Source: Yuukianura sp. NJ FZ-2021
Taxonomy: Eukaryota
NCBI GenBank assembly: GCA_046563655.1
Contig: CM102287.1
Span: forward strand, 7,502,001-7,566,000
Length of the DNA stretch: 64,000 nucleotides
Reading direction: 5' to 3'
Positions 8,643 to 30,189 of this stretch are shown here, piece by piece. The notes below the pieces were generated by a model. It worked only from the letters and a program-made list of their open reading frames with translations, searched no databases and was not told the origin of the DNA. Position 1 is the stretch's first letter. Every line of letters starts with the position of its first letter. Both the position numbers and the translations under genes were made by a program.

Positions 8643-8960
8643 CGAGATGGAATTCAAACAAAACCAAATTCAAAATAAAAGTTGTACCTGCTTCAAAAAA
8701 CTTAACTTTTTTTGTCAATTTGAGATTTTTTTTCCTGACTGGAACACTCAAGTGAATCCCAGTCCGTGACTGAATGACTTTCAAAACTTAAGAATTTCAA
8801 GACCATGAGGCTGCAGAAACCGGTTTAGCATGCATACAATTCCGTCTTTATTGACTTCATATAAAAAGGCGAAGAACAGAACATTACTTTCGCATCTGAA
8901 GCTATAAAGAGTTGAACACCAATGGCGATAATCCTTGACCTCGCTGCTTTTCCCAAATAA

Positions 8961-10915: not shown

Positions 10916-11970
10916 GATGAAGTCCTTTCAAGTACTGCTGGACACTGTTGACCCGCTGACCGTATTTCTTGTTTTTTGCTTGTCCAGGACGAGAAACGCC
11001 TCTTAATTTCTACTACCCTATGTAGAAAAGACATCGAACTCAAAGAATATTACTAGTATAAGGTGATGTGAGGGTAGAAAAAATCGAATGTGGAGACAGA
11101 GAAGGGTGCAAGAGTGGAAAAAGAACCACCGGAAAACCAGAATTTCTGGTTACCCTATGCCTTTAAAACGTGGATTTTATGGCAACAAGTCGTAATACTC
11201 AGCTTGAACATGACCTTGATGTGGTGACAAGTCCACAGGATCATACTTTAGCCTCCGTTTTTCCAGAATCAAGAACCAGTAGATTTTTTATCCTCGAATT
11301 CAAAAACCAGGTTATTTTTTAGCAACTCTGGAACAATCTAAAACTTAAATTTTATATAGTAGAGTCTTTATTTTGTAATTGTCGATTTTCCAGGGCTTTG
11401 TTCCGAACCATGAAAGCAAACATAGTACATGTATTTATTTTCGTAACTATTAAAAGTGGAGTTATAGTTTTCTAAAGTTTCAATCCACGCTTCTCTGCTA
11501 AACGCAGTAAGCCACTTTTAGATTTGACTGGCAACAGAGTACTTTTTGTTCTAAATGTATTGAAATTGAGCTTACAACGGCAAAATGTCAAAGAAAATGA
11601 AATTTCCTTGTGCTACGTTAATTGATCTTTCCCTGTAACATTTTTTATTAACTATGAAGCTTTTAATCAGACCCGACAGAAATGGAACTCAAATAGTTGT
11701 CAGATCATTGATTCAAAGCGAATGACTTAGCTTAAGGGACTTTTCTTCGAATGTGAATTTGACAATGGGGTGTAATTGGCTTGGCAGACGCCCTTACATA
11801 CTTAGAGTGAGATTCTCAGAACGTACGATATTCGCTATCTTACCATGAATTCTCAATTACTAAATTTTCATGCGTCATAGTAATTTTGAAATAAAAGTAA
11901 TTCACGCTTATGATGAACATCCAAATAGCAATTCAGCACAATCAAGTTGGTTTTTAATTAACAATTTTAA

Positions 11971-13386
11971 TTAAGTGAGTACTAGGGCGTTTACAAGACA
12001 TTCAAACAGAAATTGAAAGTATGTTGCTGGTGTTGAACGTTTCATTACACAAAAATTGCGAACTCTAACTCCCAGAGGGCGCAAACTCTTAAGTTCCCGT
12101 AATGTGGTTTCACGGTCGTCATGTTCCATAGCTTGCCATTGTAAAATCAATCTGATACTGACAGTATTTACATTGGATCCAACAAACATTATTATAGGAA
12201 TTACGACCGTACCAATTACCATCTCAATTCCAAACATACAATATGTGGTAGTATCTAACGTTCCATGCTTGTTATTAATTAGAAATGTAGTTTGAATTAT
12301 CCAGATACAAGCGAATAGCGTCATTGCCACTGGAATATGAACGGGACCAAAACAGTCATTGAAGATTTGGTTAACAAGTTGGTAATGGCGGTAAAGACCA
12401 ATCCTACATCTTCCCTCGGCTCTGTTAAAGGTTTTATATAAATTCAGTTAATCATATTTATATTAAATAATTAACTCAATTTATAAGTTTAGTATAAAAT
12501 TGCACCTTACTTCATCAGCTTCATGGACTTAATAGTTGGAAGGATGTGAATAACCATATAGTAAAGAAGGAAAGGTCCAAAGCCTGAGAAGAGGTAGACA
12601 ATGTATGTATCCACAGCAGCACTTAATATGATCATGAGTATGTTGCCATGACAACTAAATAGCTTTTGAACAAAGTAGTACAAGTGAAAAGGTTTCATCG
12701 GAACTATCATCTCTGTCAATAAGACCCCTACTAATAAATCAAGTACCAATGTGTTATTCAACAATTTCGCAAAATTCTGGATTGCTCTCAACATGTTGGA
12801 GAACTTCGTTGGATAAATTTCTGAAAGTAAAATTTCAGTTTAGGTTAAAAAACCTAACCTAACTCCTTAAACAAATCAACGTTTGCTTTAGAAATGCTTT
12901 TACGTATCATGAAAACTACTTACGTTCAACCACGTTCTGAAGAAGAAGGACTTGATTTAAATTGAAGGCAAATTCCTGTACTTTACCAATGACGGCGACA
13001 TGGATTACACCCGAGGTCAAATAAGTTACGGCAAATAATATTGTGATTACAAGATCGAGAAATTTCAAATTCAGAATGTTAAAATAACTTTGTAATACTA
13101 ATATATAGATGAGGAATAGAAATCGAATAATGGTTAAGAACACCAAAACCATCCAAACGGTTTGCTTTCCTTTGGAAGCTACAACAAATTTCCCAGAAGT
13201 AGTGCTGAATTCGAAAGGAGATACACACAATTTACCCAAAAAAGCTATAAATTTGGCAATGTATTTCACTGGGTATGCAGGATTTGTGGGGTTAGCGTCA
13301 ATGTATTTCCACTCTTTTGGTAAAATGCTACCAACATTTATTCGAGTCTTTATTTTCAAAATTTCTGAAATAAAAATATGCCACAT
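11971..13386 (-). CDS. Divergent gustatory-receptor-like 7TM chemoreceptor
   Basis: Exons 13386-12924, 12820-12511, 12421-11971 join in frame. Several hydrophobic helices; C-terminus LKSLRPLGVRVRNFCVMKRSTPATYFQFLFECLVNALV resembles the GR/OR superfamily TM7 region. Confidence 0.65.
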
Positions 13387-13721
13387 TTTACTGCTGCAAG
13401 TTCTCACTAACAACAAATAAAGGTAGGCAAATTTTCTTAGGTTGGAATTGGAATGGCTACGCAAAGTTTATTTTTACTTGGCACACGAAGGTCAAAGAAA
13501 ATGAAACTTGTAGTTCCGCCGAGCTGATCTGTATCGTAGACAATTTTTTTAATTATGGAGGGTTTAATCAGCCTGTTCCATGCTAGAAAAATACTCGCAA
13601 CCTATGTAATGTGAACTTTTTATAGCATGGAAGGCTCTGAAATGTTAACCAATTCTATGTAAAATTTTAAAATTCTTTATAATGCTATGGTTACGGTAAC
13701 CTGAAATACAAATGTTAGTGC

Positions 13722-14460: not shown

Positions 14461-17400
14461 TCACGTTTTATTTTTTCGAATGTTCAAATATAGAGCCAAA
14501 AGCCAGTATACAACGCTCCATCCGAACGTTGTCAAGAAGCCAGGCCACACCTTCGGGTGCGTGAACGGCAATCCGCGACTTACAATTGAACGAAGTGATT
14601 CACCTGACAACGTGCATGGCAAAAATAGGCTTGCGATTCTCAGGTAGTTGGGCATTCCTTCCACAGGCCAAATCACTCCTACGAAGGTTAAATGTAACTT
14701 TAGACTATTATTTGTTTTAGTTGGTTGAATTTACTCGCCTGATATGACCAAATTGGGCATAAACGCAGCGATTGTCATTAAGACAGCTTCCAATTCCGTA
14801 TGGCAAATTGCAGCAGTAAAGAAGCCTTTACAAAACAAAAACGCTTGAACTCTAATTATTATGTATTTAAAAATTGAAACAGATTTAAACAAAAATTCAA
14901 AGCAAAGAAAACCCATACCAAACGTAATTCCTGAAATACCGACAAGCTGAACAATCATGAATGCCTGTAGAATAGATCCCTGGATTTCAATTTGGAAGAA
15001 TAAGAAAACAATCAAGAATGATATTAAGCCTTCGATTGTAGAGAGAACTAATTGCGTGAGGAAGTGGGAAATCATGATTTCCTGACTTCGTACTCCAGCT
15101 ACCAGGCTCCTTTCCAGCGCTCCAGAACTTTTCTCCATCACCATAGCCATTGCAGAAGAACAAATTGGAAAGAAAAACAAAATCCTATTCCAAAATTTCA
15201 TGACAAAATCAAGATTTACGACATTTATCTCAAGAGATCAAAAGTTATGTTTTGGTTTGCCCATACGCGACAATGGCCCCTGGGGCGATGTTCTCTGTAA
15301 ATGTTGTTGTCCAGGTACCGTACACGGGTTCGCCAAACTACATATATGAAATGTTGTAATGCGATACAACTGTTGTTACAAATGCATACTAACATACGTT
15401 TCTTTTAAAGTTGTTATACTATACACCTCAACTGGTTGAGTTTGTACACTCAACCCTCTTATATATTGAAAAATTGTGCAGTATTTACGTAAATAGGCAA
15501 GTCCACTCCTTCCACATCAAATTTACAACCGACGGCAGTTGACTTCATAAATGCCTGGAAAGCCTCCAAAATGTTCTTCTGAATCAGTAATGCTATCAAT
15601 TTGCCTGCAACATAAACGATGTAAGCACTGCCTGTAGTTGAGTTCAGTTACATTAGCGGCAAACATTACAAAAGTAGGGTAATGTAGCGACATCATATTA
15701 GAGGCCTTAACATGACAACGCCTCAAAACATTTTCACACGACACAAATATTACCTATGTAATTTACGTAACGGAACGTATACAGTCAGACATATTATTGA
15801 AATTTTTGGGGCTTACTTGAACCGTCGACTCGAATAGTAATTCTTGAAGCCATCAAAGTTTCGAGGCCTGCAAAAGCACCGTATTGCAATCTTTCTTTCA
15901 GGTTCTCTGTAAAGTTTGCTGGGAACGACATCAAGCCCCAAATTTTACTCTGTTGAGCGTCGCGTATTGCGACATCTTCCTTCTCATAGTCTACCTGTTG
16001 AATACACACAATTTAGCACTACAGTGTTGTAGAGTTAATACTTTAACTACTCTGATTGTATTTATCTTAACATTTGTTCAACATTGAGTTACCAGAATAA
16101 AAACTTCTGGATTCAAAGCCTTGATGAATTCGCAACTAGCTCTGCTGTTGTACTTGGCTGCTGAACTCATCATACATCCGACTTCGGCGGAAGAGGAGCA
16201 TTTGCTATCAGGTCCAACTTCGTTATTGATCACAGCCAGAGTTATATCATGAGGGTCCGGTCCAATGGCCAGACAGACTGTTACAATTTGCAGAGCAGGT
16301 TGACCAACCAGGAAAAACACAAAGCTGGAAGTAGAAACAAAGTTTGTACACTAACCTAACCTTCTCTACTGATGCTAAAAGCTAAACCTAGTTTGACAAC
16401 TTACAGCAAATTCCGAGCGAGAGTGAGTACATTTTTGATGAGAAGTGCCAGGATCCGACTGAATTTTTGCTTCGATTCTCTGACAAACTTTTCCGTTTTC
16501 GTTTCCTTATTTCCGGATATAGGGATTAGCAAAGCAGCTTTGTGCATTACGTCTCCTAGGCTTGGCCAGCGATTGAACGCAGGAACTTGCAGTGGTTCAC
16601 AAGGTGCAGTCACGGATAAACTTGGACTTGGTTCAGGCGCTGTGTGCAGGGCAGAAGCTGACAAGGTAATCTGGCTGCGCGGAACGTCCGGAGTCAACAG
16701 TAGGTCAGTTGAAGGTTTTGCAACTTGCATTCTGACTCTGGCTTTTGAAGCGTCTTCGGAATTTTCATCGTCCCCGCCCTGATCTTCTCCAGATTTGTCT
16801 TTCAGGCATAATTCAACTACGATTTCTTCCAAAATATTTGTTTGGTACTTTTTCATTAGAGCCAACGGTGTTTCTTCCATAAGAATCTTTCCATTCCGCA
16901 TTAACCCAATCTGTTTAACATAACACATAATGTAAGGAAACTAATGTAAAAGGAGCTCGGTTGTACATAGTTTTATGCAATTAATTTGTTATGTAATGTA
17001 TTCTTTTTTGTAATTACGCGGTTTGCATCGCGAGCTTCTTCGATGAAGTGAGTGGTAATGATGATTGAAATTCCAGAAGACGTGGCTAGTTTCACCAAGT
17101 GGCTCCAGATACTGGTGAAAGTTGGGCAATAATTAAAGTATTAATAATTAACACCAAAGTCTATTATTAGTTGATGAGTATTTCGTGATTAACCTTCTTC
17201 GTAGAAGAGGATCAACACCTACGGTTGGTTCATCCAAAATTAATAGTTCTGGATTATGAACCAATGCCACGGCAAACGACACTCGGCGTTGTTGTCCTCC
17301 ACTAAAATTTTTGAAATGAAAATTGTGATTAACCGTGAAACCGCAAATTTTGAAATTCAAGTCAAGGTTTATCTCGTCCCAGCCCAAGGTTGATAAGGAA

Positions 17401-18370
17401 AGAAATACGTTTTCTTTAATAGGTTAGGCAATAACTGGAGTTTTAATTTTTTGCTAAAAATTTTCAAAACTGAATTCACCCAGTTTCAATCGCCGTTGGT
17501 ATGGTAATTGGAATTAAAACTTCATAGAGATGCCTTTTCAATAGGCAAATTCAAAGTAGAAAAGGAAAAAAAAAACAAAGGTGGAAAAAATTGTTTGACA
17601 AGATTTCTTGAAAACTTGAGTTATTGCCCTACCTGTTGAAGAAAGTTCAATTTCGTTGTCAACGAATCTTGGTGCTAGCCTTTCCTATTCTGCATTTGAA
17701 AAGTTACGTAAATGCTTTGCAAAAATTTTGTTTCCCGGAATTCGGTAACTTTTCAACTGTATTTTTGTAAATTTCCAATAGCAGTTATTACATTAAGTGT
17801 CAAAAAATGATGCTAAGGATTTTAAAGTTTACTTCTTTTATTTTTACCTGAGAGAGTTGATGCGACGTTCTCCTGGGGGCAATTTGAGAAAGTTGATGAG
17901 AAACTTTTTGTTATCTTCGACATCTTCGCTGGACATTCCGAAAATTCTGCCGAAATAGTGTAATTCCTCTGAAATGCTAAATTCTCCATGCAGTGCAATT
18001 TCCTGTGGCATGAAGCCCAGCTTTCTTCCGGGCACTCCGCATTCCGGGTCGCCTGGAGTTTTTCCAAAAACGGAAATAGTACCGGAGTCGAGTCTCCGTG
18101 TTCCGATGACGCACGACAGTAGAGTGGTTTTCCCACATCCAGACGAACCCAACAAACTATAACTGTGGAATACAAATAATTCCATTAAATGAAATACTAT
18201 AGAGTTGAAATTTTGCTTAACTTTTCAGTATCATTGACTTACATTTTGCCACGCTGAACGTTCATTGACAAATTGTCGATGATAGGTTTAACTCCAGGTT
18301 TTTTAGAATACGCTTTAGTGGCATTTGTAACACAAACGGCGGAAATATTTGGTTCGCGTCTTACAGTCAT
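14461..18370 (-). CDS. ABC transporter subfamily H (NBD-TMD half transporter)
   Basis: Walker A GSSGCGKT, signature LSGGQQRR, Walker [31 protein letters not shown]-terminal [11 protein letters not shown] typical of ABCH. About 11 exons; one GC-AG intron (donor 14738). Confidence 0.93.
17385..17671. mobile_element. Degenerate MITE in ABCH intron, same architecture as the CAAGGTTC family
   Basis: Ends CAAGGTTG / GAATCTTG. Internal inverted repeat 17412-17444 vs 17611-17643. TSD only imperfect (gtcccagcc / gtgctagcc). Confidence 0.6.
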
Positions 18371-19530
18371 AAAGCTAATTGACCCCATGTTCATTATTTT
18401 CAACCTCGTTCAAAATTTCAATTCAAATTTTCAATTTTAAAATCAGAGCGCAGAAGTCAACGAAAACTCAAATAAATTCAAACTCCAAAGTAGTATGTAT
18501 GTTCAATCGTGCGATGGTGCTTCTTGAGACCCTTGTTTTCTTGCTGACAGCTTCACTGAAAAGAGTCTTCGTCAAACTGAATTTTGGAATTCATATATTG
18601 GGAAAAAGAAAATTATGAAACGAGGCGCATTGGAAAGTAATTTCGTTTAATACCAAATGAGCCAGATTAATTAACAGTATCTTCGAAGTTATTATGACCA
18701 AGACTGGAAGCTCATGGTGAATTTCAAAGCGACGGCCTTGAAATTACGGCCACGGCCATTAAAAAGCTAAAAAAAAGTCAAGATGAAATTTCTTCGGTTT
18801 GCGAATTCTTAGAAATTGCATTCATTATTTAACAAAACCGAATGAAATTTAAATCGCCACACAGAAAGAAAATGTAATTATATGCTGTGCAAAAACGTCA
18901 TTATTTTGAGGTTTTCTAGGTTAAAAAGTGTTTATGTAATGTACTTTCACCTAGAAGGTTACCTAAAGCTGTGATAATCTGAAAGATCATACTACATGCA
19001 AACTTCGCCTTTGGTTGTTTTTAAAACAATTTTAACCATACGTGACGTTCTAATCTGTAATGCAAAAATCATTGACAATTGGGATAATGCAACAAAGCAG
19101 TTCAATTTCATTTTTGATTCAACGATGTCAAAAAATCTAATAACACCTACTAGGATTATGTTATGTTAGGTTTTGCTTACTATGTAATTTTTATTGGGAT
19201 GCCAATCTCCCATTGTTTTCCAATATCATTTACAAAGTTACTGTTATTCCACATTTTGATAAAATTCGGTTATCTTATTAAATTTACAAAATCTACTCCC
19301 TCCGTTAATCTCTAACTCCCCAATTCCAGTGTTTTAGTTTCACGTTCTGCATTCTCGAAGAACTAAACTATCGTTATGATATCCTAGATTATCCATTCAC
19401 ATTGTGTGAGCAGCACGTTTATTATAAGGTGCTACTAAAAATTAGCACAAAATCTTATACAATTTACTTTAGTTATTAACTTATGCTAAATTACACATTT
19501 AGTGTTAAATCTTTATTCTTTGTTGTCGAA

Positions 19531-22440
19531 ATGGATACTGAAGGATCTGCTACATTCGAGTGGCCAGACTATTTAGTTTTTGGCGTTGTTCTTGCGCTGT
19601 CGGCTGGAATTGGTGTGTTCTATGGCTGTTTTGGTTCAAAGCAAGACACAAATGAAGAATTTCTTATGGGAAACAGGAAGATGGCTCCTCTTCCAGTGGC
19701 AATGTCGTTATTGTGCAGGCAAGTGCGGGTTATGCACTATGTCATTGGAGATGTTAAATCAAGCGCGACAATTTGTTACACGGCGTAACTTACACCTCGA
19801 TTGATTTGTAAATTTTACACAGGTAATTTTTTTCAGCTTTCTTTCGGCAATTTCGTTGCTTGGAACACCAGCCGAAATTTACTTTTACGGAACGCAGTAC
19901 TTCTTGGTTTTGGTTGCGTTTATTCCATTGACCATTTCATTGACGTATCTCTACGTCCCGGTTTTCTTTGAATTGAGACTGACTTCAGCTTATGAGGTAG
20001 GTTTAAATTTGCCATGATGCTACTACACTAACCAATTACATTAATCCTTCTCCAGCAATTCGTTCCGGATGAAAACACAATTTTTGATTTTGTTTCTGCA
20101 GTATTTAGAACTCCGGTTCAACAGGACGATTCGAATTGCTGTGTCGACAGTATCATGTTTATACCTCGTAAGAATACGCAAAAAGATGTGAAAATTAGCT
20201 GCAGAATTCTAAGTTTTTAGAGTTTCAAATTTTGTTTTGTAGCTTATGTACATGGCGATAGTGGTTTACGGACCTAGTCTCGCCTTAAGTCAGGGTAAAT
20301 CTATTATTATTTATATTATTCTGTATCGAATTCAAAAATAAGGCCAAACTGCTTTCTGCAATATTTTTGTCCTAAATTTTTTAGTTACTGGAATTAACCA
20401 TCGAATCTCCGTGATATCAATCTTCATAGTGTGTACATTTTATTCAACACTCGTAAGCTTGCTGTTTCAAAAAGTTTTAGAAGATATTTTGTTCACAATT
20501 TTGTTGTAATATCTCTTTGTAGGGTGGAATCAAAAGTGTAGTTGCGACGGATGTGATTCAGTGCTTGATTATGCTATGCTCAACGTTAGTGGTCGTTGGG
20601 AAGGGAGTTTATGACGTTGGTGGATTCGCGTACATTTGGGAGACAGCATATGAAGCCGGACGCATTGAATTTTTCAAGTAATTGGAATGGAAAGTTTTCA
20701 AGGTTGACTCTTTTTCGTTCGTAGTTTTGTGAACGAAAAAGAGTCAACCATGATAACTTTCTCCTGTTACCTCTTTGAAGAGGAAGCAAGTGAAAGTTTT
20801 TCGTGAAAAAATTAATATCCACTTTTAATATCCATCTACTTTGTTATTTAGCTTCGATTTAGATCCTAGGACAAGATACACAGTTTGGGGAACTGTATTT
20901 GGAGAGTACGTGGCTTGGTTGGCTGTATATGGTGCAACCCAAGCAAACGTCCAGCGATTTAGTTCTATTGGCTCAATTTCCGGCGTAAGGCGGTGTGTAT
21001 ACATCAATTATGCTCGTGTTTGATCAATTTTTTGTTTTGATTTCTTGTTAATTAATGTTTATTAGAGCTCTGATTTATAACTGGTTGGGTTTGACAGCCC
21101 TCGTAGGCTTATCACTCTTTGCCGGTCTTGTTGTATTTGCCAAGTATGTTGACTGTGACCCAATAAGCTCAAATGTAAGCTGTATATTTAATTTTATTGG
21201 AATTTAAAATCTAAAAGCTACCTTAACCATCACATAACCCATGAAAATTGTGGACAATGAATTTATAATGTCATTTTTAAAGCAAGTGCAAAGCCCCGAC
21301 CAATTGCTACCACTGTTCGTAATGGACACTTTGGGAAACACACCGGGGCTGCCCGGATTTTTTGTAGCAGGGATTACATGTGCGAGTTTGAGGTAAACTA
21401 TTTTGCAATTACTTCTGAATGTAGTTAGTAAAACAATTGAAAACAAATTCGGAATGTTTTTTTAGCACAGTGTCAAGTGGGCTTAACGCACTGGCAGCAG
21501 TGATTGGAGAAGACTTCATAAAATACTACCGCCCAAATTTAAAACCACGTACAATGGCCAATCTATCTAAAGCAATTTGTGTCATTGGAGGAGCTTTGTC
21601 CTTTGGGCTTAGTTTTGTTGCGGAACTAGCGGACAGCATATTCCCAGTACAAAAAATATTTAAAACATATTTAAAATTCAAAATTTTGAATTGTTGTATA
21701 ATGTACTACTATATAGTGCATATACAACTATTCAAAATACGAAATAATTTAACCCCATTGTAAACAGAAAAAAGTTACAAAAGAACAATATAATTGTGTT
21801 TTTTTTTGTTTACAGACCACCATCGCTCTAATGGGAGCAACATTGGGTGAGCTTTTTTCGTATAACCATTTTTTAGCAATTTTAATAAAATGAGAGGGAT
21901 TTCTAATTTTCAATGTCATAATTTCAGGACCAACACTTGGAATATTTTCGCTAGGACTGTTTTTCCCATTTGCAAATTCAAAAGTAAAACTTTTTCAAAA
22001 AAATTTTGTCAATTTTTTGTATTAAACTTGTTTTCCAGGGAGGACTTTTGGGACTGATCTTAGGAATCTCCATGGCCTTGTTTGTGAGTATTGGATCTCT
22101 GGTTGACCCCAACATACCAAATCAAAAACTGCCGCTGTCCACTGCTGGATGCATAGGATTCAATTCATCAGATCCAATTTCAGATGAAGGACTGTATTGG
22201 AAAGACAAAGAGTACAGTGTTCTCACGAACATTTTTTCAGTGTCATTCCTTTGGACATCGGTCATTGGAGCGTTTGGTTGTTTACTACCCGGTGTTATTT
22301 TTAGTTTATTTTTTACTACTAAACCCAATACAGTTGATGCAAGATGTATTAGTCCACCACTCATGCGTCTCTGGAAAAAACTGAACCCTCAAAAATTGAA
22401 TACTGTTTTAATACAACACAAGGAATCAAATTGTGATTAA
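19531..22440 (+). CDS. Sodium:solute symporter (SLC5A6/SLC5A8-like)
   Basis: [94 protein letters not shown]. About 13 short exons; first intron GC-AG (19719-19836). Final exon end uncertain. Confidence 0.93.
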
Positions 22441-23102
22441 AAGAATTTTACCAGAAAAAAAATAGCATGGTCATAAATTTTGCTGAATTTAGTAGGCTTG
22501 TTTTTGTTTGTATCTTCAGGTAACTGATGCTTGCAACTGCGTTCAAAGCATATGAAATTTTTGGAACGATAAATACATGGTGCTAAAGACAGAGACTTAT
22601 TGACAGCATGATAACATGGGAAAACGATCGGTGGAGAAGATTAATTGTGCTGTAGACTTGCTCTGTATAACGTCTACTGAATTCATGAAGACGTAATTTT
22701 ACACATTTTTCTTTAATTTTAGTAGAAACAAAGCAGCTTTCAAATTGATGCGGGATCGCATGTTTAACCTCACCTAAAATGGTGGATTTGTTGCATGGTT
22801 CCATGTATTTGTGTATGTAGTTAACACGAATTATGCAACGACATTTCGTAACTTTATTTTTTTAAAATACTTCATCCTAATCAAGGCTACTTGTCCACGA
22901 GTGTTTTATCATGTCAAGTTTCAGTTTAAATTAAATTGGCAGTTGATGTCGATTTTTTATTGTAAACCAACTCAAAAACTAGTTTTTGGTTTACTCAAGG
23001 TCATTCAGCCAAGTCCCAAGTTGTTAGCGTGTGCCATTGCAATTTTTGTCATTAGACGCTCACTTTAAAAGTCTACCACTTTTATCAACATCTACTGGAG
23101 AT

Positions 23103-25707
23103 ATGGCCACTCCGGAGATTTGTATCCTTGGCGCTGGGTATTAATTTTGTCAATTTGACTTTTGTGCTAAGTTGTAGATTTAGTTAATTTAGTTCGAGTA
23201 AAATATTGGCTGATTTAAAAAAAACGAAATAGGCAAGGCAGAATTTGAGGTTTAGCATTTTGATTTGCCAGATTTGCGGGGCTGACAGTAGCTATTCAAC
23301 TTCGTCGTACGTTACATTGGAATACGTTTACCATTTATGAAAAAAACGAAGACATTGGAGGCGCATGGTTTTCGAATGTGTATCCTGACTGCGCATGTGA
23401 CTTTCCCAGTCACTTCTACTCTTGGTCATTCGAACCAAATCCTGGTAACTTTAATGTTCTGTTGTTTTGAATTTTGTCTGAAATTGAAATTTTTGATTTT
23501 ATTAAACCCAGACTGGTCAAAAAATTTTGCTGATCAACCGGAGATTCTGGCGTACATGAAAACGGTAGCACGCAAGTACAAAGTCTACGATAACTTAAAA
23601 CTGAAAACTGAAGTTGAATCTGTGACATGGAACGAGAATGTAAACCAATGGACTGTAATTGCCATGAACAAGGACAGTGGTGTTAGAGAAACGCGAAATT
23701 TTGATTTTATGTAAGTGCAAATTTAATTTGAAACGTAGTATTTAAATAGAATTTTAATTTTTTTTTGCAATTTTAGTTTTTCAGGGGTGAATTGTCTTTG
23801 GCAGCCGAACAAACCTAAAATTTTTGAAAACTTTTCGGGTCCTTGTTTTCACACAGCCGAATGGAATGACTCGGTGGATCTGGAGGGCAAGGTCGTGGGG
23901 GTAGTTGGTACGGGATCGTCTGCTGTCCAAGTAATTCCTTGGCTTGCGCAGAAAGCAAAAACGTTGCATTCATTTCAGCGCCAAACAGCCTGGATTTTGC
24001 CCAAAGACGTCTACGAGTACAGCAGTTTCCAGAAATGGGCATTCCGGAACATTCCATTTGCAATGAAGTTTCATCGCTGGGGTCAATTCTGGGAGCTTAA
24101 CAATATGAACAAAGTGGCAGTTCATGGATCTGAATTGAACAAACAAGGTAACCAATAAAATTCGAATTGCCATTGTATCAAGGTTCGTAAACAAAAAAAA
24201 ACTTCTTTCACACTAGGTTGTTCAATAACTGGAAGTTTTGGAATTTGTTTGAAAAAATAATTTTTGCCTTTCTATGGTATTTTTTTGCCTATAATGTAAA
24301 TGGGATTGCTGCAGAAATTTGTGTGAACTTCAAACTTTCTGCACCAACTTCAAACTTTGAAGTAAGGTGTTTGGAAATCCTGAGGTATTGGACAACCTGT
24401 TGTACGACATACAATTTGTTGTATTTCGGTTGTCAAGGAACCTTGCATTGTATGCTATGACTATTATATTTCGACGTAAGTGAAAAAACGCACGCCCTCA
24501 TCTCATTTATACATGGTACTAAAATTCAAATGCTTTTAACAGTGAGGGAGATGGCCATTAATTTCATCAAAGAACAGACAAGAGCTAAACCAGACTTGTG
24601 GAAACAACTTGTACCAAACTATGATTTCGGATGTAAGGTCGTATCATTTTCGAGCACTTATTTTCCAACTCTGGCAATGGAAAATGTCAAAGTTCACTTC
24701 AACGGAATTTCTGATGTTACTGCCAAAGGTGTAGTCGCTACTGGAGAAAGTGAAACTCCTCTTGATGTAAGCTCGGAACGATTAAAATTTATTTCAAAAC
24801 TATTTACGCAAGGTTCGTAAACAAAAAAAAAACTTTTTCTACACCAGGTTGTCCAATAAATGGAAGTTTTAAAATTTGTTCAAAACAAAAACTACCTTTC
24901 TACCGTAATTTTTTGTATGTAATGTAAATGGGATTGGTACAGAAATTAGTTTGAAGGTATTTGAAAACCCTGAGGTATTAGGTATTGGACAACCTGTTGT
25001 AGGAAATACAATTTGTTGTATTTCCGATGTCAATGAACCTTGCATTTACGTGTCATATCAGGCTAATTTAAAAATGATTACAAATTATCATTATATTTTT
25101 GGCTTCAATTTTGAGGTGCTGATTCTTGCCACTGGCTTCAAATCACAAGAAATTTTTGGACCAATGAAAATGATTGGTGCCGAAGGACAAGACGTTTTAA
25201 AAATTTGGCAAGAGGATCGACCAAGAAATTTTTTTGGCCTGTGTAGTACGATTGCTCCAAATTGCTTTTTCATTGGAGGTCCGTACGGCGTAAGTTGAAT
25301 TTTTTGATGCTGTACTGAGTTTCTTGTAATTTAATTTTGAATTCAAATTCTTCCTAACTCCTACTAATATGACTTGTTTTTAATTTTTTTGTGCCTTACT
25401 ACTACAGATTATTCCAACGACAACTGGAACGTTCATGTACGAAACTCAAGCAAACCATGCAATTGAGCTTTTGAACTTTATGTTCAAAGCAGATAAGAAA
25501 TTTGTTGTAGTGAAGAAGGAAGCGGAAGACGCTCACATGGAAGAAGTTGACCAATCCATATCTACGCATGTCATTTCGAAGAATCCAGAAGCAGCATCTT
25601 GGGTTATTAATAGCAAAGGAATGTTATTTGCGGGAAGTACGTTTTCCAGTCTGGAATATTGGTGGAAAGCAAGAGCTTTTGACTCTTCAAAATTTGTTTT
25701 TAAGTAG
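23103..25707 (+). CDS. Type I Baeyer-Villiger-like flavin monooxygenase (bacterial/fungal type) with six spliceosomal introns
   Basis: Exons 23103-23137, 23272-23444, 23512-23710, 23777-24147, 24543-24766, 25116-25289, 25408-25707. FAD motif ILGAGFAG; GGAWFSNVYPDCACD; fingerprint FSGPCFHTAEW; NADPH motif VVGTGSSAVQ; DVLILATGF; YETQA. Confidence 0.9.
24179..24445. mobile_element. hAT-like MITE, copy 1 (BVMO intron 4)
   Basis: TIR CAAGGTTC...GAACCTTG; perfect 8-bp TSD CATTGTAT at 24171-24178 and 24446-24453; internal IR AGGTTGTTCAATA / TATTGGACAACCT. Confidence 0.9.
24809..25042. mobile_element. hAT-like MITE, copy 2 (BVMO intron 5)
   Basis: Same TIRs; aligns with copy 1 along its length; TSD TATTTACG / CATTTACG (7 of 8). 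Confidence 0.88.
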
Positions 25708-26195
25708 TATGTTCAAATTTTCATTACGCGTTGAAATGAATTGAAACTTTGAAATTGTAGTACCCATGTCCTAATAGTATTTTGTTATTTCGGTCCAAAC
25801 ATAGAATGCGCACAAAAATTGCACAAATATATAAAAAATCCATGTTGAATTTGATTCTTTTTTTTTTCCTCCCCATTCTTGGCAATTAGTGCGGTATCCG
25901 GCAGGAAGTAGATCGCTATCGAACAAGTCAAACAGAACGACAATAATCTATTTTTGGAAGTTTGTTTTTGAAATTTGAAGTTATTGATGAATTCGTTATT
26001 TGCAAAACAGGAATTGAGTTGCATGTTAGTCATTTCGTCGCCTTTATGAAAAGGAATTGCATGTTCTAATTTCATAATTTCTGAAATTGGAATTGAATTC
26101 TAAAGAAAACTGTTTTTGGTTCCGGTTAATTGTAATTGCTTTTATAAGACAGAATTAATGAAACGCAAAATTCAGAAAGAATTTACTCTGTAACC

Positions 26196-27882
26196 ATGAA
26201 TGGTCAATGGTTGATACTTGGCGTTGTACTGTTAACAAGCATATACGGTGTCCCACCTTCCTCTGGTTAGTTTGGTAACTTTTTTTTTAAATTACCCTAA
26301 CACAAGTTGTAATTTTTAGAATTTTCATGTTTAACTTAACCAAAATCTACTATTTTTCGCAGCATCCGGACATGGATTGTGTGGGCAAGCGAAACCTGAC
26401 ACGAAAAAAACCTGCATCAGTGTCCGCCTTCCCTGGAAAGCCGAGCCAATCTACTTCTGCACTGGTAACTGATATTCTTCAAAGAGTAAACTGGAGCATG
26501 AGCTTCATTTTTGGAAATTTTGTTTTAAAGTTCGTATTAAAATTTTCAGAAAAGGAGAATGTGAAATACGAAAAGAAATGCCCAGAGTCACATAAGTGCT
26601 TGCAAACGCAATGGAGCAACGTCACGCTGCTGATAGCCACGCCATGGGACTGTTGCCCCATAGCTTCCAAACCAAGTATACAAATAAACCACGTTCAAAC
26701 TTTCCAAAATTTTGAGTTATGCTGATTCTGAAGTTAAGCAAAAATTTTAAGGTTCCTTGAGGAGAACCGAATAGTGCTCCTAAAATAAGTTGTCCAACAA
26801 CTCGAGATTTTCAAAAATTTCGAGAAAAAAAAATGTTTTCCTCCAATTTTCGTACAATTTACACAACACGTAAATAATTATCATAGAAAGCTGCAGGAGA
26901 AAATTTTTTACAAATTGTTTAAGAATTCTGAAAACATTCAACTTTTGGACAACCTGGTGTAGGAAAAACTTTTACGCTTGTTGACGAACCTTAAAAATTC
27001 TTTCTAGGTAACTGTGAAAACGTCTTTTGTCCTCCGAAACCGCATAACCGTACTTGCGTGACGTTGAAGAAGCGGTACTTAGGCGGATGTTGTCCATCGT
27101 ACTTCTGTGAGGAATCTACTGACCCCGAGGAGACATGTAACTTCAAGGCCCTCGAACCTAGTTGTCATGCGCCGCCAAAGGACAAGACCAAATGCATTGG
27201 GTTTGTTGACCACTACGGTTGTTGCACAAAGTACCAGTGCGAAGGGGGTAAGATAACGGCGTAGATTTCAAATTAAGCTATGATTCAAAGTCCATTTTGA
27301 AAAATGTTTTTAAAAACTTATCCAAAATTTCCGTGAATGTTAAAAATTGTTATATGAGAACAGTTTTGTTGAGTAGAAGGAAAACCTGGAACATGTCCAG
27401 CACATTACCAAATCCCACCGAATGGCTATGTTCCCAATCCAAGGAATGTGGGCCAAGCAAACTTATATGATCGACAGATGAACATGCAAGACCATCCGGC
27501 CATCAACAACGCGTTACGGAAACAATTATTATTGGTGAAGCACTTTACACACCAGTCGCTCCACTGCATCGGAGACTGGAACTGTCCAGGCGACATGAAG
27601 TGTTGTCCAGTAGCTTACTCCGTCAGTTACGGCGTGTATCCAACTCGTGACAGTTCCGCCAGTAGTTTCTATACGACTCCGACTCCTACAACTGAACCGG
27701 ATGGTGACAGCAACAGCATCTTCTACGACTCCAGAGCCACTTATGGATACTGTACTCATCCGGCAAAGAAAGGGCATGGCAGGGGATCTGGACGTAACAA
27801 AAACAAAAGACCCATTACGCCTTCACCGGAAAAAACTGAAGATCATACTGAAGATCATACCGAAGAAGATGCGGAACAGTAA
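26196..27882 (+). CDS. Secreted cysteine-rich protein with CC-containing modules and an interrupted WAP-like domain
   Basis: Exons 26196-26265, 26363-26464, 26550-26675, 27008-27247, 27377-27882, all phase-1 introns. Signal peptide MNGQWLILGVVLLTSIYG. KPGTCP...CIGDWNCPGDMKCCP...GYCTHP. Confidence 0.75.
26748..26993. mobile_element. MITE related to the CAAGGTTC family, in intron 3 of the Cys-rich gene
   Basis: Ends TAAGGTTC / GAACCTTA; internal IR GTTGTCCAA / TTGGACAAC; shares TTGGACAACCTG-TGTAGGAAA with copy 2. Confidence 0.7.
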
Positions 27883-28654
27883 AATGTTTGCTGCTGTTAT
27901 AAAAAGATCAAAATTGTATAATTCTGCATGGTTTTTGGTAATCATGCTACCCATTAAACTTCATTATCTTAATTACGATTAAACTCTTTAAAAACCCAAT
28001 GCGTTGTTTAATTATGCTATAAATCGGGTAGTCACGGAAGAAAACCTGACTTATTACGTTAGCCGAACCTCTTACCTCTAGCACTATGAAGTCAGAAAAT
28101 GACCTCTAAAAAATATTTATCTCCGAAAAAGAATTTTTGTCCATATCACTTCGAAATATTAACTGCCTAGTTAAGGAAAAAAAAAGGAGTTTCGATATTT
28201 GATTAAACCTTGCATAACACTTAATTAAACACGCCGAGACTCGTAGAAAATGGATAGCCATAATAGCTTTCCGCAGTATATTGTTGGTAGTTACACACTA
28301 AAAATTTATGACCCCTGGTTTCATTTCAAGCTAAGAATATCTACACAGGACTAGACGCTATTATGGCCAATCTTCCAAATCGAGCTTTATTAGCTTCAAT
28401 TTATGCCGAAGAACACAAAATAAACTAACATAATCAACCGCAGCGCGGCTTACTGTTAACAAAATCAATTTCAATTTCAGTCTCTTTTAGTCGAGCCAGG
28501 GATGTCGGTGTAGCTGTAGCTCCAGGCTTTCACTTTATTAAAAACTTATCTCTTTAACTCGTACACCTCAAAAAACTAGAATTTTAGTTCCAAAATTTGT
28601 ATTAAATGCTAACATTGTATACGTTTTACTTAAAACTCACACCGTACAAATAAA

Positions 28655-30189
28655 ATGCTATCGGAAGAAGTAGTTGCCGCCTTTAGTAACTTTATGGCGC
28701 GAAATACCAAGCTGTACATTATACCTGGCTATTGGCGTAGGGAAGACAGGGAGTTTGTGCCGAGTACGAAGCGACATAGAGTATTTATGGCGTTCTGGGC
28801 AATGTTTAAATTACTATCCGTGATTTGGTTTGACTGCGCGTATGGGTACATGGTACTCCAATATCTGCAACAGCCCTCTGGTGTCGTCAAATCGTTCTTA
28901 CCTGCCGTCATGCTATGCGGGATTAACAGTTGTGTTGTAGCAGGCGTGACGATTTATGGGTATCAGACAGAAGTAGAACAATTCATTCATGGCTTCCTGC
29001 GACTCAACAAATCTCTGAGTAAGCTAAGTTCACATTTCCCGAGTTTTGAAAAACTTTTTATGAAGTTAAAATCATGTACGAAAATGGAAAATATGTAAAA
29101 ATGACAGTATAAAATATGAAGTATGTAAAATTACGAAGTTTTTATGATGTTTGGTTAATATTTTCTGTAGTGAATCTTTTGAACGCTGACGAAAAACTTG
29201 CCCCAAGTCAACGCCTGATGCGTCAATTTTTTCATCTTGCCGACGTTGCCATCATTTTTGGAACAGTGGCCATGGCATTCTTGTGGATACGGAATTACTT
29301 GAACATTAACGCTTACGTATTTTACTTTGGCGAGAATGTTGGCGTACATGCCTACAACGTATTCATTATGTCATTTATACATATGACATGGCATACTTGG
29401 TTCCAGTTGGTCACAGTCAACTTTCTCTACTTACTCAGCATGTACAATTGGCTTCAGGAAATCCTGTAGGTTTCTAAAAACCAGAGCTGCCAAAAATATT
29501 TAGTTCCCATGCCTGTAACGTTAAGAAAATCAATATTTCGTGCATGTTTGTTACGAATTATTTATTTATTTTTCCATGCTTTTAATATTAAATATTTTGA
29601 GATTTTTCAGTAAATATCGTATTTATTTAGATGTTTTACTGTTCTAAGTAAATATTTTTGGCAGCCCTGCTAATAACAATCATTTAAAAAATTCTCCATG
29701 AATTTTATAATTTGCAGAAAGCAAACTAAAGACGGGAGATTGGACTTTACAAAAACACTGAAAGTGTTCAGACACGTACGCGTAATGCAAACCCTTCATA
29801 GCAACGCCTTTTCAACATTTTACTTTCCGGGGAGCATGACTCTTGCTCAACTCTGCGTCATATCACCTATGGCTACCATGATTCTGTTCTATAATCAAAT
29901 TGGCCCGATCCCTATCATATTTCTCTCCATGTGTGTCTGTATTCAGTCTTTCATGATCATTATTATCACAACTGCATCGAGCCACATCACCGAAACTTCG
30001 GCAAAAATTCTCGAGCAGATGAAACAATCTCGAAATGTCGGACGTGCTGTAATGCGGCGTCACCTTAAACCACTTCGGAAAATACGTATTTACATTGGAT
30101 CTTTCTACTTTGTAGATCCAGGCACACTCCTTGTAACAATGGACAAAGTTGTAGGCAACATAATTAACATTGTACTAACCTACAAATAA
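28655..30189 (+). CDS. Second divergent gustatory-receptor-like 7TM chemoreceptor
   Basis: Exons 28655-29018, 29171-29465, 29718-30189. C-terminus RHLKPLRKIRIYIGSFYFVDPGTLLVTMDKVVGNIINIVL. Same three-exon, phase 1/phase 2 layout as the gene at 11971-13386. Confidence 0.7.
29482..29669. mobile_element. 188-bp hAT-like MITE in intron 2 of the second GR-like gene
   Basis: TIR CAG(A/G)GCTGCCAAAAATATTTA at both ends; 8-bp TSD CTAAAAAC / CTAATAAC. Confidence 0.85.

What the first reader, a model, noticed from the sequence alone, without database searches (positions are those of the whole stretch)
23103..25707. Microbial-type Baeyer-Villiger monooxygenase domesticated in an arthropod genome (candidate HGT with six introns)
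Seen: the spliced ORF has both Rossmann motifs plus GGAWFSNVYPDCACD and FSGPCFHTAEW. Known: FxGxxxHxxxW and [AG]GxWxxxx[FY]P[GM]xxxD are type I BVMO fingerprints typical of bacteria and fungi, whereas animal FMOs end the first motif in Y/F. The gene has six GT-AG introns (two holding host MITEs) and sits between animal genes, so contamination is unlikely. Inference: an old horizontal acquisition used for detoxification or defensive/semiochemical chemistry.
Basis: partly seen in the sequence, partly recalled or inferred. Interest (0 to 1): 0.75.

Follow-up and report, generated by a model that had tools for sequence, protein, structure and literature searches.

The report
Arthropod Baeyer-Villiger-type monooxygenase gene
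This is a real, intron-containing arthropod gene for a microbe-like flavin monooxygenase; it belongs to a small family also found in springtails and fungus gnats, was probably gained long ago by gene transfer, and this copy has lost a key catalytic residue.

Summary
At 23103-25707 (+) seven exons joined by six GT..AG introns give an uninterrupted 491-aa protein, colinear with 488-510-aa relatives. It carries GAGFAG, GTGSSA and FSGPCFHTAEW, plus an imperfect second BVMO fingerprint (YPD where YP[G/M] is expected).

The gene is integrated in the host. Introns 4 and 5 carry a repeat with 35-200 times the flanking depth. Arthropod-type genes share the contig, and GC3 is host-like.

It is not a private microbial acquisition. 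In two ML trees it falls inside an arthropod-only clade (support 100/99 and 100/100). That clade holds Collembola (Orchesella, Folsomia), sciarid flies (Bradysia) and unnamed environmental sequences. One unnamed environmental member of the clade shares 3 of 3 testable intron positions and phases.

The clade's sister group is unresolved among Mucoromycota, Amoebozoa and bacteria (AU p = 0.28). An old horizontal origin is likely but not proven. Springtail members were already flagged as HGT in a genome paper's supplement.

This copy is the odd one. Its branch is long (1.0-1.5 against a median of 0.42). It deviates at 11 of 74 highly conserved columns, and the catalytic Arg (PAMO R337) is Val. 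I infer an altered, non-canonical function. It is a new member of a known kind, of moderate interest.

The parts
23103..23137 (+). Exon 1 (ATG; MATPEICILGAG, first half of the FAD Rossmann motif GAGFAG); ends in phase 2
23138..23271 (+). Intron 1, 134 nt, GT..AG, GC 0.29
23272..23444 (+). Exon 2; holds GGAWFSNVYPDCACD (imperfect BVMO fingerprint, D at the [G/M] position); PF13450 hit at E 6e-9
23445..23511 (+). Intron 2, 67 nt, phase 1 in the D codon of 'DWS'; same position and phase in environmental relative L014
23512..23710 (+). Exon 3
23711..23776 (+). Intron 3, 66 nt, phase 2; same position and phase in L014
23777..24147 (+). Exon 4; holds FSGPCFHTAEW(N) and the NADPH Rossmann motif GTGSSA, followed by FQR
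24148..24542 (+). Intron 4, 395 nt, phase 1; same position and phase in L014. Holds repeat copy 1 (about 24179-24449). An allele without the repeat (24170 joined to 24466 with 21 other letters) is present in runs X1-X3
24543..24766 (+). Exon 5; FGCKVV at codons 288-293. Val292 (GTC, 24638-24640) stands where 69 of 70 aligned relatives have the Arg that corresponds to the catalytic Arg of PAMO and CHMO
24767..25115 (+). Intron 5, 349 nt, phase 0. Holds repeat copy 2 (about 24809-25046) with inverted arms 24835-24858 / 24983-25006; depth up to about 39,000 in run X1
25116..25289 (+). Exon 6 (VLILATGF ... GGPYG); same exon start and approximate end in environmental relative L001
25290..25407 (+). 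Intron 6, 118 nt, phase 0
25408..25707 (+). Exon 7 and stop TAG. The C-terminal part has several lost conserved residues (H396T, W448I, C454A, Y458V, W469S). Nine variants within 55 nt are seen among contigs of one sample
19480..22440 (+). Upstream neighbour: multi-exon sodium:solute symporter-like gene
26995..27882 (+). Downstream neighbour: cysteine-rich secreted-type gene with a WAP domain

Best explanation
The locus is an intact nuclear gene of an arthropod. It encodes a 491-aa class B (two-Rossmann-fold, FAD/NADPH) flavoprotein monooxygenase of the Baeyer-Villiger lineage. It belongs to an arthropod-restricted clade whose named members come from springtails (Orchesella, Folsomia) and sciarid fungus gnats (Bradysia). 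The introns were already present before the window's lineage and an environmental relative diverged. The clade most likely began with one old horizontal acquisition from a soil microbe; the donor could be an early-diverging fungus, an amoebozoan or a bacterium and is not resolved. Later spread between soil arthropods is possible. The copy in this window has evolved fast. It keeps the FAD and NADPH motifs and an open frame but has replaced the catalytic Arg with Val and changed ten other near-invariant residues. It therefore most likely no longer performs canonical Baeyer-Villiger oxidation and serves an altered function, such as another flavin-peroxide reaction, NADPH oxidation or a non-catalytic role. 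Shown here: the gene model, the integration, the BVMO affinity, the clade membership, the shared introns and the residue losses. Inferred: the HGT origin, the altered function and continued selection.
For: Gene model: 7 exons, 6 GT..AG introns, 491 aa, colinear end to end with 488-510-aa relatives. BVMO affinity: exon 4 hits solved BVMOs at E 8.5e-12 to about 1e-9 and FMOs at 6e-4 to 1e-3; relative P0278 gives BVMOs at 3.7e-54 to about 1e-47 and FMOs at 4e-19 or weaker; the best NCBIfam match is the BVMO PtlE, far below its cut-off. Integration: the high-copy repeat in introns 4 and 5 is polymorphic in intron 4; a second study's run ('organism B') covers the gene with contigs carrying about 2-8% other letters, one contig spanning the intron-4 repeat; arthropod genes lie on the same contig; GC3 is 0.40, within the 0.33-0.52 of ten neighbouring ORFs. 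Clade: in the careful ML tree of 70 rows the arthropod set of 22 rows including the window has support 100/99; in the tree of 59 rows the set of 30 rows has 100/100. The best full-length identities are to arthropod-clade rows (40.6% to Bradysia odoriphaga P0278); fungal, amoebozoan and bacterial rows give 31-36%. Introns: 3 of 3 testable positions and phases are shared with L014, and the exon 4 and 6 limits agree with L001. Patchiness: among the best 120 of 4012 profile hits, the 13 named animal rows are all Collembola or Sciaridae. Orchesella BVMO-like genes appear in a supplementary GO table (Table S7) of the O. cincta genome paper, which I read as the enrichment table for its HGT set (PMC4987106 supplement). 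Sciaridae are reported to hold 'alien' P450 and terpene synthase genes from springtails and mites (PMC12051294 and PMC11665903, passages seen). Divergence: end branch 1.51 or 1.0 against a median of 0.42; 11 of 74 columns conserved at 90% or more deviate, against a median of 2; R292V is unique among the 70 rows, and the Arg aligns with the 'AKRPL' Arg of CHMO. In PAMO, K336 'precedes the catalytically crucial R337' (PMC2956058, passages seen). An open frame after so long a branch implies selection on the ORF (inference).
Against: The arthropod clade is not nested inside any donor group. Holding all 17 fungal, amoebozoan and other microbial eukaryote rows as one clade is not rejected (AU p = 0.278). 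The eukaryote/bacteria split is 95/98 in one tree but only 37/40 in the other. Tree 1 splits the arthropod clade into a Collembola side (94/76) and a side holding the Bradysia rows, unnamed rows and the window (95/97); tree 2 recovers only the Collembola side (96/95). This partly mirrors a springtail-versus-insect species tree, which also fits vertical descent with losses. The window's place inside the clade is unstable: with the Bradysia rows and unnamed rows at 95/97 in tree 1, unresolved in tree 2. The window's organism is not identified below Arthropoda. There is no evidence of expression. The solved-structure alignment of the Arg column rests on a relative, because exon 5 alone finds no solved BVMO. 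Coding variants among contigs are 8 synonymous and 9 non-synonymous in the 17 listed rows, a small and truncated sample; this shows only mild constraint. Absence from other animals rests on word-filtered searches that list 120 rows each.
Confidence: 0.6

Rival explanations
1. Vertical inheritance. The gene descends from a BVMO-like gene of the common ancestor of animals, fungi and amoebae and was lost in nearly all animal lineages, as Mascotti et al. proposed for the BVMOs of Hydra, Oikopleura and Adineta.
For: In tree 1 the fungal, amoebozoan and arthropod rows form one side of a branch against bacteria (95/98). The arthropod clade is separate from both microbial groups, and tree 1 splits it into a Collembola side and a side holding the Bradysia rows. 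Shared introns show the gene is old in arthropods. PMC4498894 argues for duplication and loss for metazoan BVMOs (passages seen).
Against: It needs losses in every other animal lineage and in most insects. The best 120 profile hits name no animal other than 3 springtail and 2 sciarid species. The eukaryote/bacteria split drops to 37/40 when fragments are added. The holders are all soil- or fungus-associated, and one of them (Sciaridae) is reported to carry springtail- and mite-derived genes. BVMO-like genes of O. cincta appear in the supplementary GO table that I read as covering that paper's HGT set.
Confidence: 0.2
2. Recent, independent acquisition of a bacterial or fungal BVMO by the window's own lineage, followed by intron gain. 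This is the literal reading of the first-stage note.
For: The first search with exon 4 returned only prokaryote-type hits (3 of 7 named bacterial, the rest unnamed metagenome proteins) at 40-54% identity. The BVMO motifs are typical of microbes.
Against: The window groups with arthropod sequences at 100/99 and 100/100. It shares 3 of 3 intron positions and phases with another clade member. Identity to bacteria and fungi (31-36%) is lower than to its best arthropod hits (up to 40.6%). GC3 is host-like.
Confidence: 0.03
3. A decaying copy. After duplication or loss of need, the gene is drifting toward pseudogenisation and has no function, although no stop codon has appeared yet.
For: The catalytic Arg is lost, 11 of 74 conserved columns are changed, and the terminal branch is long. 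Non-synonymous variants are as common as synonymous ones in the listed rows (9 against 8). No RNA data are available. Two other long-branch clade members also lack the Arg (P0080 has L, P0156 has I).
Against: There are 491 codons without a stop or frameshift, and all 12 splice dinucleotides are canonical, despite about 1-1.5 substitutions per site on the branch. The FAD and NADPH motifs and the Lys before the lost Arg are kept. 9 non-synonymous to 8 synonymous is well below the roughly 3:1 expected without constraint (my estimate). Contigs of a second study's run ('organism B'), carrying about 2-8% other letters, cover the gene.
Confidence: 0.15
4. Contaminant or mis-assembly: a microbial contig joined to arthropod DNA.
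For: None found.
Against: Six spliceosomal introns; a host repeat of very high copy number in two of them; contigs of runs from two studies cover the gene and its flanks; host-like composition.
Confidence: 0.01

Closest known systems
BVMO-like genes of springtails and sciarid flies: Orchesella cincta ODN02459.1 and paralogs annotated 'Baeyer-Villiger monooxygenase', Folsomia candida 'Baeyer-Villiger monooxygenase', Bradysia coprophila 'FAD-binding monooxygenase ktnD-like'
   Same: Same clade in both ML trees (100/99 and 100/100). Same length (about 490-510 aa) and end-to-end colinearity. Same motif set. Nuclear genes of soil arthropods.
   Different: At most 41% identical to this protein. The named members aligned here have YPG, the catalytic Arg in G[CN][KN]R and the conserved C-terminal W/Y residues, which this copy has lost. 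The window's species is not one of them.
Type I Baeyer-Villiger monooxygenases with solved structures (PAMO 1w4x, CHMO 4rg3/3gwd, STMO 4aos, OTEMO 3uov)
   Same: Closest solved relatives by sequence. Two Rossmann motifs, FxGxxxHxxxW, the FQR NADPH arginine and the Lys preceding the catalytic Arg (PMC2956058).
   Different: About 50 residues shorter. The relative's alignment to the solved BVMOs breaks between residues about 220 and 270. The catalytic Arg is Val. YPG is YPD. W is followed by N instead of P/D.
Metazoan BVMOs reported earlier (Hydra vulgaris, Oikopleura dioica, Adineta vaga; Mascotti et al. 2015, PMC4498894)
   Same: Rare BVMO-type genes in animal genomes, with a disputed origin (HGT or loss).
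   Different: None of these taxa appears among the best 120 hits of the clade profile, so they probably belong to other BVMO subfamilies. The terms 'arthropod' and 'Daphnia' do not occur in that paper.
Animal flavin-containing monooxygenases (FMO1-5, insect FMOs; Pfam PF00743)
   Same: Same class B fold and cofactors. Pfam's FMO-like model is the best Pfam hit of relatives (E 1e-19 to 1e-23).
   Different: The FMO motif ends in Y/F, here W. Solved FMOs score far worse than BVMOs.
'Alien' P450 and terpene synthase genes of Sciaridae, attributed to springtail or mite donors (PMC12051294, PMC11665903)
   Same: Same kind of taxon pattern (Collembola and Sciaridae, absent from most insects) for a secondary-metabolism enzyme.
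   Different: Different enzyme families. In my searches no paper held both 'Baeyer-Villiger' and 'Bradysia' (0 papers). The one paper with 'Baeyer-Villiger' and 'Folsomia candida' concerns fungal metabolites, judging from its title and abstract in the search listing.

Membership tests
Type I BVMO (class B flavoprotein monooxygenase, subgroup B1) | Two dinucleotide-binding motifs GxGxx[G/A] | tested here: met
   GAGFAG at residue 10 and GTGSSA at residue 180
Type I BVMO (class B flavoprotein monooxygenase, subgroup B1) | Fingerprint FxGxxxHxxxW (FMOs have Y/F at the last position) | tested here: met
   FSGPCFHTAEW at residue 155; fingerprint as quoted in PMC10682829
Type I BVMO (class B flavoprotein monooxygenase, subgroup B1) | P or D directly after that W | tested here: not met
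   The next residue is N. The six closest relatives have D or N there
Type I BVMO (class B flavoprotein monooxygenase, subgroup B1) | Fingerprint [A/G]GxWxxxx[F/Y]P[G/M]xxxD | tested here: not met
   GGAWFSNVYPDCACD has D at the [G/M] position, so the regular expression finds no match. 67 of 70 aligned rows have G there
Type I BVMO (class B flavoprotein monooxygenase, subgroup B1) | Catalytic Arg (PAMO R337, in the G-x-K-R stretch) | tested here: not met
   FGCKVV: Val292, where 69 of 70 rows have Arg. The Arg of relative P0278 aligns with the 'AKRPL' Arg of CHMO. R337 is called catalytically crucial in PMC2956058
Type I BVMO (class B flavoprotein monooxygenase, subgroup B1) | Sequence closer to solved BVMOs than to FMOs or NMOs | tested here: met
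   Exon 4: BVMOs at 8.5e-12 to about 1e-9, FMOs at 6e-4 to 1e-3. Relative P0278: 3.7e-54 against 4e-19
Type I BVMO (class B flavoprotein monooxygenase, subgroup B1) | Placement inside the BVMO clade in a tree rooted with FMOs and NMOs | not tested
   No characterised FMO, NMO or canonical BVMO sequences were available as stored proteins for the trees
Type I BVMO (class B flavoprotein monooxygenase, subgroup B1) | NADPH- and O2-dependent conversion of ketones to esters | not testable with these tools
   Needs an enzyme assay
Arthropod BVMO-like clade (Collembola and Sciaridae) | Monophyly with the named arthropod members, to the exclusion of microbial sequences | tested here: met
   Support 100/99 (22 rows of 70) and 100/100 (30 rows of 59)
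Arthropod BVMO-like clade (Collembola and Sciaridae) | Shared intron positions | tested here: inconclusive
   3 of 3 positions and phases are shared with the unnamed clade member L014, and L001 is consistent. Genomic loci of the named species could not be fetched
Animal FMO | Motif FxGxxxHxxx[Y/F] | tested here: not met
   The last position is W
Horizontally acquired gene (usual criteria) | Physical linkage to native genes, plus introns or host repeats | tested here: met
Horizontally acquired gene (usual criteria) | Recipient sequences nested within, or sister to, a defined donor group with support | tested here: inconclusive
   The microbial eukaryotes and the arthropod clade meet in an unresolved fork. 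AU p = 0.278 for microbial eukaryotes held as one clade. The eukaryote/bacteria split is 95/98 or 37/40
Horizontally acquired gene (usual criteria) | Absence from most relatives of the recipient | tested here: inconclusive
   The only named animals among the best 120 of 4012 hits are 3 springtail and 2 sciarid species. The searches are word-filtered and truncated, and many unnamed fragments exist

The most novel reading that the evidence does not exclude
The window's gene, together with other long-branch members that also lack the catalytic Arg (P0080 has Leu, P0156 has Ile), may represent BVMO-derived proteins in soil arthropods that have left Baeyer-Villiger chemistry for a new role. The whole family would then be a further case, after P450s and terpene synthases, of secondary-metabolism genes passed between soil micro-arthropods (springtails, mites, fungus gnats and the window's taxon) after one microbial acquisition.
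Probability: 0.2. Interest if true: 0.7.

Novelty: new member of a known kind. Interest (0 to 1): 0.45.

Why it matters
BVMOs are treated as essentially microbial enzymes. In the papers I read, the animal cases named are Hydra, Oikopleura and Adineta (PMC4498894), and the 2023 FMO review calls BVMOs more restricted in eukaryotes (PMC10682829). This locus adds a well-anchored arthropod example: it has introns, host repeats and linked native genes. The searches made here also show that springtails, sciarid flies and unidentified soil arthropods share one BVMO-like clade with conserved introns. That pattern bears on the debate between HGT and ancient loss for animal BVMOs. It also bears on the reports of gene sharing among soil arthropods. 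The loss of the catalytic Arg in an otherwise intact, fast-evolving copy offers a natural test of what a BVMO scaffold can become.

Tried and rejected
- The window's whole genome is not held, so paralogs elsewhere could not be sought. Inside the window there is no second copy (tblastn).
- Earlier findings of the scan were not open.
- No RNA holder was listed for the stretch. Splicing and expression are therefore unverified, and only DNA contigs could be laid.
- Rfam at gathering thresholds found nothing in the 64 kb.
- Exon 5 alone finds no solved BVMO; its best hits have E 0.37 and 1.5 and are unrelated. The equivalence of Val292 with the catalytic Arg therefore rests on the family alignment and on a relative's alignment to CHMO.
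- The remote searches were run with exon 4 alone or with relatives and a clade profile. The spliced protein was used only in local scripts, so no structure was predicted for it.
- Taxon of the window: the Atlas look-up of the neighbouring SDHAF2 gave only 'commonest Arthropoda'. Run organisms are coded. The putative 7TM genes gave no credible Pfam family: four ORFs had none and one had only sub-threshold matches, best MARVEL at 20.2 bits against a cut-off of 32.8.
- Name look-ups of 30 representatives gave few names. Of the 20 picked as arthropod-clade candidates, the only taxon names were Ramicandelaber brevisporus, Orchesella dallaii and a partial protein from a Sphagnum jensenii assembly. 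The first 10 had named only Orchesella cincta and Hyaloraphidium curvatum.
- Ramicandelaber (Kickxellomycotina) was tested as a possible close fungal relative. It falls outside the arthropod clade.
- Considered and rejected: an animal FMO (motif and PDB ranking), a contaminant, and a recent private bacterial acquisition.
Full report
**Observation**

Reading 22600-26200 and locating the borders by script gives seven exons on the + strand:

| Exon | Coordinates |
|---|---|
| 1 | 23103-23137 |
| 2 | 23272-23444 |
| 3 | 23512-23710 |
| 4 | 23777-24147 |
| 5 | 24543-24766 |
| 6 | 25116-25289 |
| 7 | 25408-25707 |

- All six introns begin with GT and end with AG. Their lengths are 134, 67, 66, 395, 349 and 118 nt, and their GC is 0.18-0.33.
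- The joined CDS is 1476 nt and gives 491 aa without a stop.
- The second BVMO fingerprint is not matched strictly, because D stands where G or M is required.
- The W of the first fingerprint is followed by N, not P/D. The fingerprints are as quoted in PMC10682829 (passages seen).
- Pfam on single exons gives only generic Rossmann and FMO-like hits.

**Integration in the host**

- Introns 4 and 5 each hold a copy of one repeat of about 240-270 nt with inverted ends.
- When Logan contigs of four DNA runs were laid on 21000-29000, the bins with this repeat had summed depths of about 7,000 and 39,000 in run X1. Flanking bins had about 150-500. The other runs showed the same pattern.
- Contigs of runs X1-X3, which come from one sample, also carry an allele in which 24170 joins 24466 with 21 other letters. 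The intron-4 insertion is therefore polymorphic.
- Run X4 comes from another study and is labelled 'organism B'. Its contigs cover the gene with about 2-8% other letters. One contig spans exon 4, the intron-4 repeat and exon 5.
- Upstream lies a multi-exon sodium:solute symporter gene. Downstream lies a WAP-domain gene.
- The same window holds a cuticle protein with Chitin_bind_4, a UGT, and ABC and MFS transporters. It also holds an SDHAF2 whose nearest Atlas cluster is mostly Arthropoda.
- GC3 of the CDS is 0.40, inside the 0.33-0.52 range of ten neighbouring ORFs.
- Contamination is excluded. I could not place the organism below the level of arthropod.

**Which family**

- Exon 4 (123 aa) was scored against 1.84 billion representatives. 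It gave 4763 hits at E ≤ 1e-3 and none at E ≤ 1e-30; the best hit was 51% identical.
- Against solved structures, exon 4 hits BVMOs (STMO, PAMO, CHMO, OTEMO and others) at 8.5e-12 to about 1e-9. It hits FMOs only at 6e-4 to 1e-3.
- The full-length relative P0278 gives BVMOs at 3.7e-54 to about 1e-47 and FMOs at 4e-19 or weaker.
- The protein is therefore on the BVMO side of class B, not an animal FMO.

**Relatives**

- The first named eukaryotic hit was 'Baeyer-Villiger monooxygenase [Orchesella cincta]' (P0012).
- I built a profile from the window's exons and six relatives (alignment A1). It retrieved 4012 proteins at E ≤ 1e-30, of which the best 120 are listed.
- The named animal rows among those 120 are 13, and no other animal is named:

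| Species | Rows |
|---|---|
| Orchesella cincta | 4 |
| Orchesella dallaii | 2 |
| Folsomia candida | 2 |
| Bradysia odoriphaga | 2 |
| Bradysia coprophila | 3 |

- Next come Amoebozoa (Acytostelium, Planoprotostelium), Mucoromycota and Zoopagomycota fungi, then bacteria.
- Local blastp of the spliced protein against everything fetched gives the following identities:

| Group | Identity to the window protein |
|---|---|
| Best hit, P0278 (B. odoriphaga) | 40.6% over 490 aa |
| Arthropod-clade rows | 34-41% |
| Amoebozoa | 31-34% |
| Fungi | 33-36% |
| Bacteria | 31-36% |

**Trees**

Tree 1 is a careful ML tree of 70 rows by 511 columns (LG+C20+F+G4).
- All 39 eukaryotic rows fall on one side of a branch against 31 bacterial or unnamed rows (support 95/98).
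- An arthropod set of 22 rows, including the window, has support 100/99.
- That set splits into a Collembola side (94/76) and a side holding the Bradysia rows, unnamed sequences and the window (95/97).

Tree 2 has 59 rows: fewer bacteria, and added fragments, Ramicandelaber and a protein from a Sphagnum assembly.
- The arthropod set is 30 rows at 100/100, and the Collembola side is 96/95.
- The window's place inside the clade is unresolved.
- The eukaryote/bacteria split is weak (37/40).
- Ramicandelaber lies outside the arthropod clade.

Holding the 17 microbial eukaryote rows together as one clade costs 9.2 log-likelihood units and is not rejected (AU p = 0.278). The sister group of the arthropod clade, and hence any donor, is unresolved.

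**Introns in relatives**

- Two metagenome contigs are intron-bearing members of the clade: L014 (1221 nt) and L001 (1489 nt), both with GC of about 0.40.
- L014 has introns at the same codon and phase as window introns 2, 3 and 4. These are phase 1 in the D of 'DWS', phase 2 after 'FD[FI]', and phase 1 after 'LNK[QT]'. That is 3 of 3 testable positions.
- L001's exon limits agree with window exons 4 and 6.
- These introns are older than the split between the window's lineage and L014's.

**This copy is aberrant**

- Its end branch is 1.51 in tree 1 and 1.0 in tree 2, against a median of 0.42.
- In the 70-row alignment, 74 columns are at least 90% conserved. The window deviates at 11 of them, against a median of 2. 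Only two rows deviate more: the truncated P0291 and P0253.
- The changes are T43A, G51D, G141N, E244N, R292V, G328E, H396T, W448I, C454A, Y458V and W469S.
- At R292V, the other 69 rows all have Arg.
- The stretch reads FGCKVV, where relatives have FGCKR.
- In the alignment of P0278 to CHMO, this Arg pairs with the Arg of 'AKRPL'.
- For PAMO, the primer for K336 encodes FGTKRLIL, and the text calls R337 'catalytically crucial' (PMC2956058, passages seen). That R337 mutants lose activity is my recollection of Torres Pazmiño 2008, which I did not read.
- Two other long-branch members of the clade also lack this Arg: P0080 has L and P0156 has I.
- The FAD and NADPH motifs, the FQR Arg and the Lys before position 292 are kept.
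- Of the 17 coding variants listed among the contigs, 8 are synonymous and 9 non-synonymous. This is a truncated list, since only the best-supported rows are shown.
- An open frame of 491 codons and twelve canonical splice dinucleotides after such a long branch argue that selection has kept the ORF (inference).

**Literature**

- Mascotti et al. 2015 (PMC4498894, passages seen) report animal BVMOs only in Hydra, Oikopleura and Adineta. They favour ancient origin with losses. The terms 'arthropod' and 'Daphnia' do not occur in the paper.
- The 2023 FMO review (PMC10682829) calls BVMOs more restricted in Eukarya than FMOs.
- The O. cincta genome paper (PMC4987106) reports 253 HGT genes, 30.4% of them of fungal origin (passages seen).
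- Its supplementary Table S7 is a GO enrichment table that I read as covering its HGT set. It lists GO:0004499 with 4 significant of 9 annotated genes. These include Ocin01_04229, whose best UniProt hit is a Lichtheimia monooxygenase, and Ocin01_09211. Both carry Swiss-Prot 'Baeyer-Villiger monooxygenase' descriptions. One supplementary file could not be searched.
[quoted passage not shown] They also carry five terpene synthase genes attributed to mites (PMC12051294 and PMC11665903, passages seen).
- No paper in the library held both 'Baeyer-Villiger' and 'Bradysia' (0 papers).
- One paper held 'Baeyer-Villiger' and 'Folsomia candida'. Judging from its title and abstract in the search listing, it concerns fungal metabolites.
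- One paper held 'Baeyer-Villiger monooxygenase', 'horizontal gene transfer' and 'arthropod': the FMO review.

**Verdict**

The gene is BVMO-type and truly resident in an arthropod genome, and an old horizontal origin is the likeliest history.

The gene is nonetheless one member of an arthropod clade whose springtail members already appear in the Orchesella paper's supplementary table. The donor is unresolved, and vertical descent with massive loss is not excluded.

The new points are three:
- A further, very divergent lineage of this clade.
- Conserved intron positions within the clade.
- Loss of the catalytic Arg in an otherwise intact gene.

Function is inferred, not shown: an FAD/NADPH-binding protein that probably no longer catalyses standard Baeyer-Villiger oxidation.

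Noticed in passing
window 24170-24466 (intron 4): Presence/absence polymorphism of the intron-4 repeat. Contigs of runs X1-X3 join 24170 to 24466 with 21 other letters. Other contigs, including one from run X4 ('organism B'), contain the repeat. The repeat family has very high copy number (depth up to about 39,000 against about 200).
   Followed up: partly
window 25446-25500 (exon 7): Nine variant sites within 55 nt, falling into two alternative haplotypes among contigs of one sample. Five are synonymous and four non-synonymous. Exon 3 (23658-23669) has a similar cluster of six.
   Followed up: partly
P0080 (with P0387, P0388) and P0156, unnamed JGI and Logan proteins: Other long-branch members of the arthropod BVMO-like clade also lack the catalytic Arg (Leu and Ile at that column). 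The loss may be recurrent, or it may mark a subfamily.
   Followed up: partly
P0390 (NCBI CAK9250286.1, partial, 'Sphagnum jensenii'): A protein from a moss assembly falls inside the arthropod clade next to Bradysia-like sequences. It is most simply arthropod DNA in the moss assembly.
   Followed up: no
window 1831-3811 (-): Two adjacent ORFs rich in proline, valine and glutamine. The one at 3008-3811 carries the Chitin_bind_4 (R&R) domain, which suggests a tandem pair of cuticle protein genes.
   Followed up: no
window 10124-10927 (-), 14731-18224 (-), 8004-8669 (-): A UDP-glycosyltransferase, an ABC half-transporter (ABC_tran plus ABC2_membrane) and an MFS transporter lie within 15 kb upstream. 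The BVMO-like gene therefore sits in a neighbourhood rich in detoxification and transport genes.
   Followed up: no
window 11971-13467 (-) and 28634-30189 (+): Multi-exon ORF sets with many hydrophobic segments that look like chemoreceptor-type 7TM genes by eye. Pfam gave no credible family for any of them (four ORFs none; one only sub-threshold matches).
   Followed up: partly
L001 and L014 (both from metagenome Ga0194135): Two different intron-bearing members of the clade, only 42% alike in the exon-4 region, occur in one environmental sample. This suggests paralogs in one soil or freshwater arthropod, or several such animals.
   Followed up: partly
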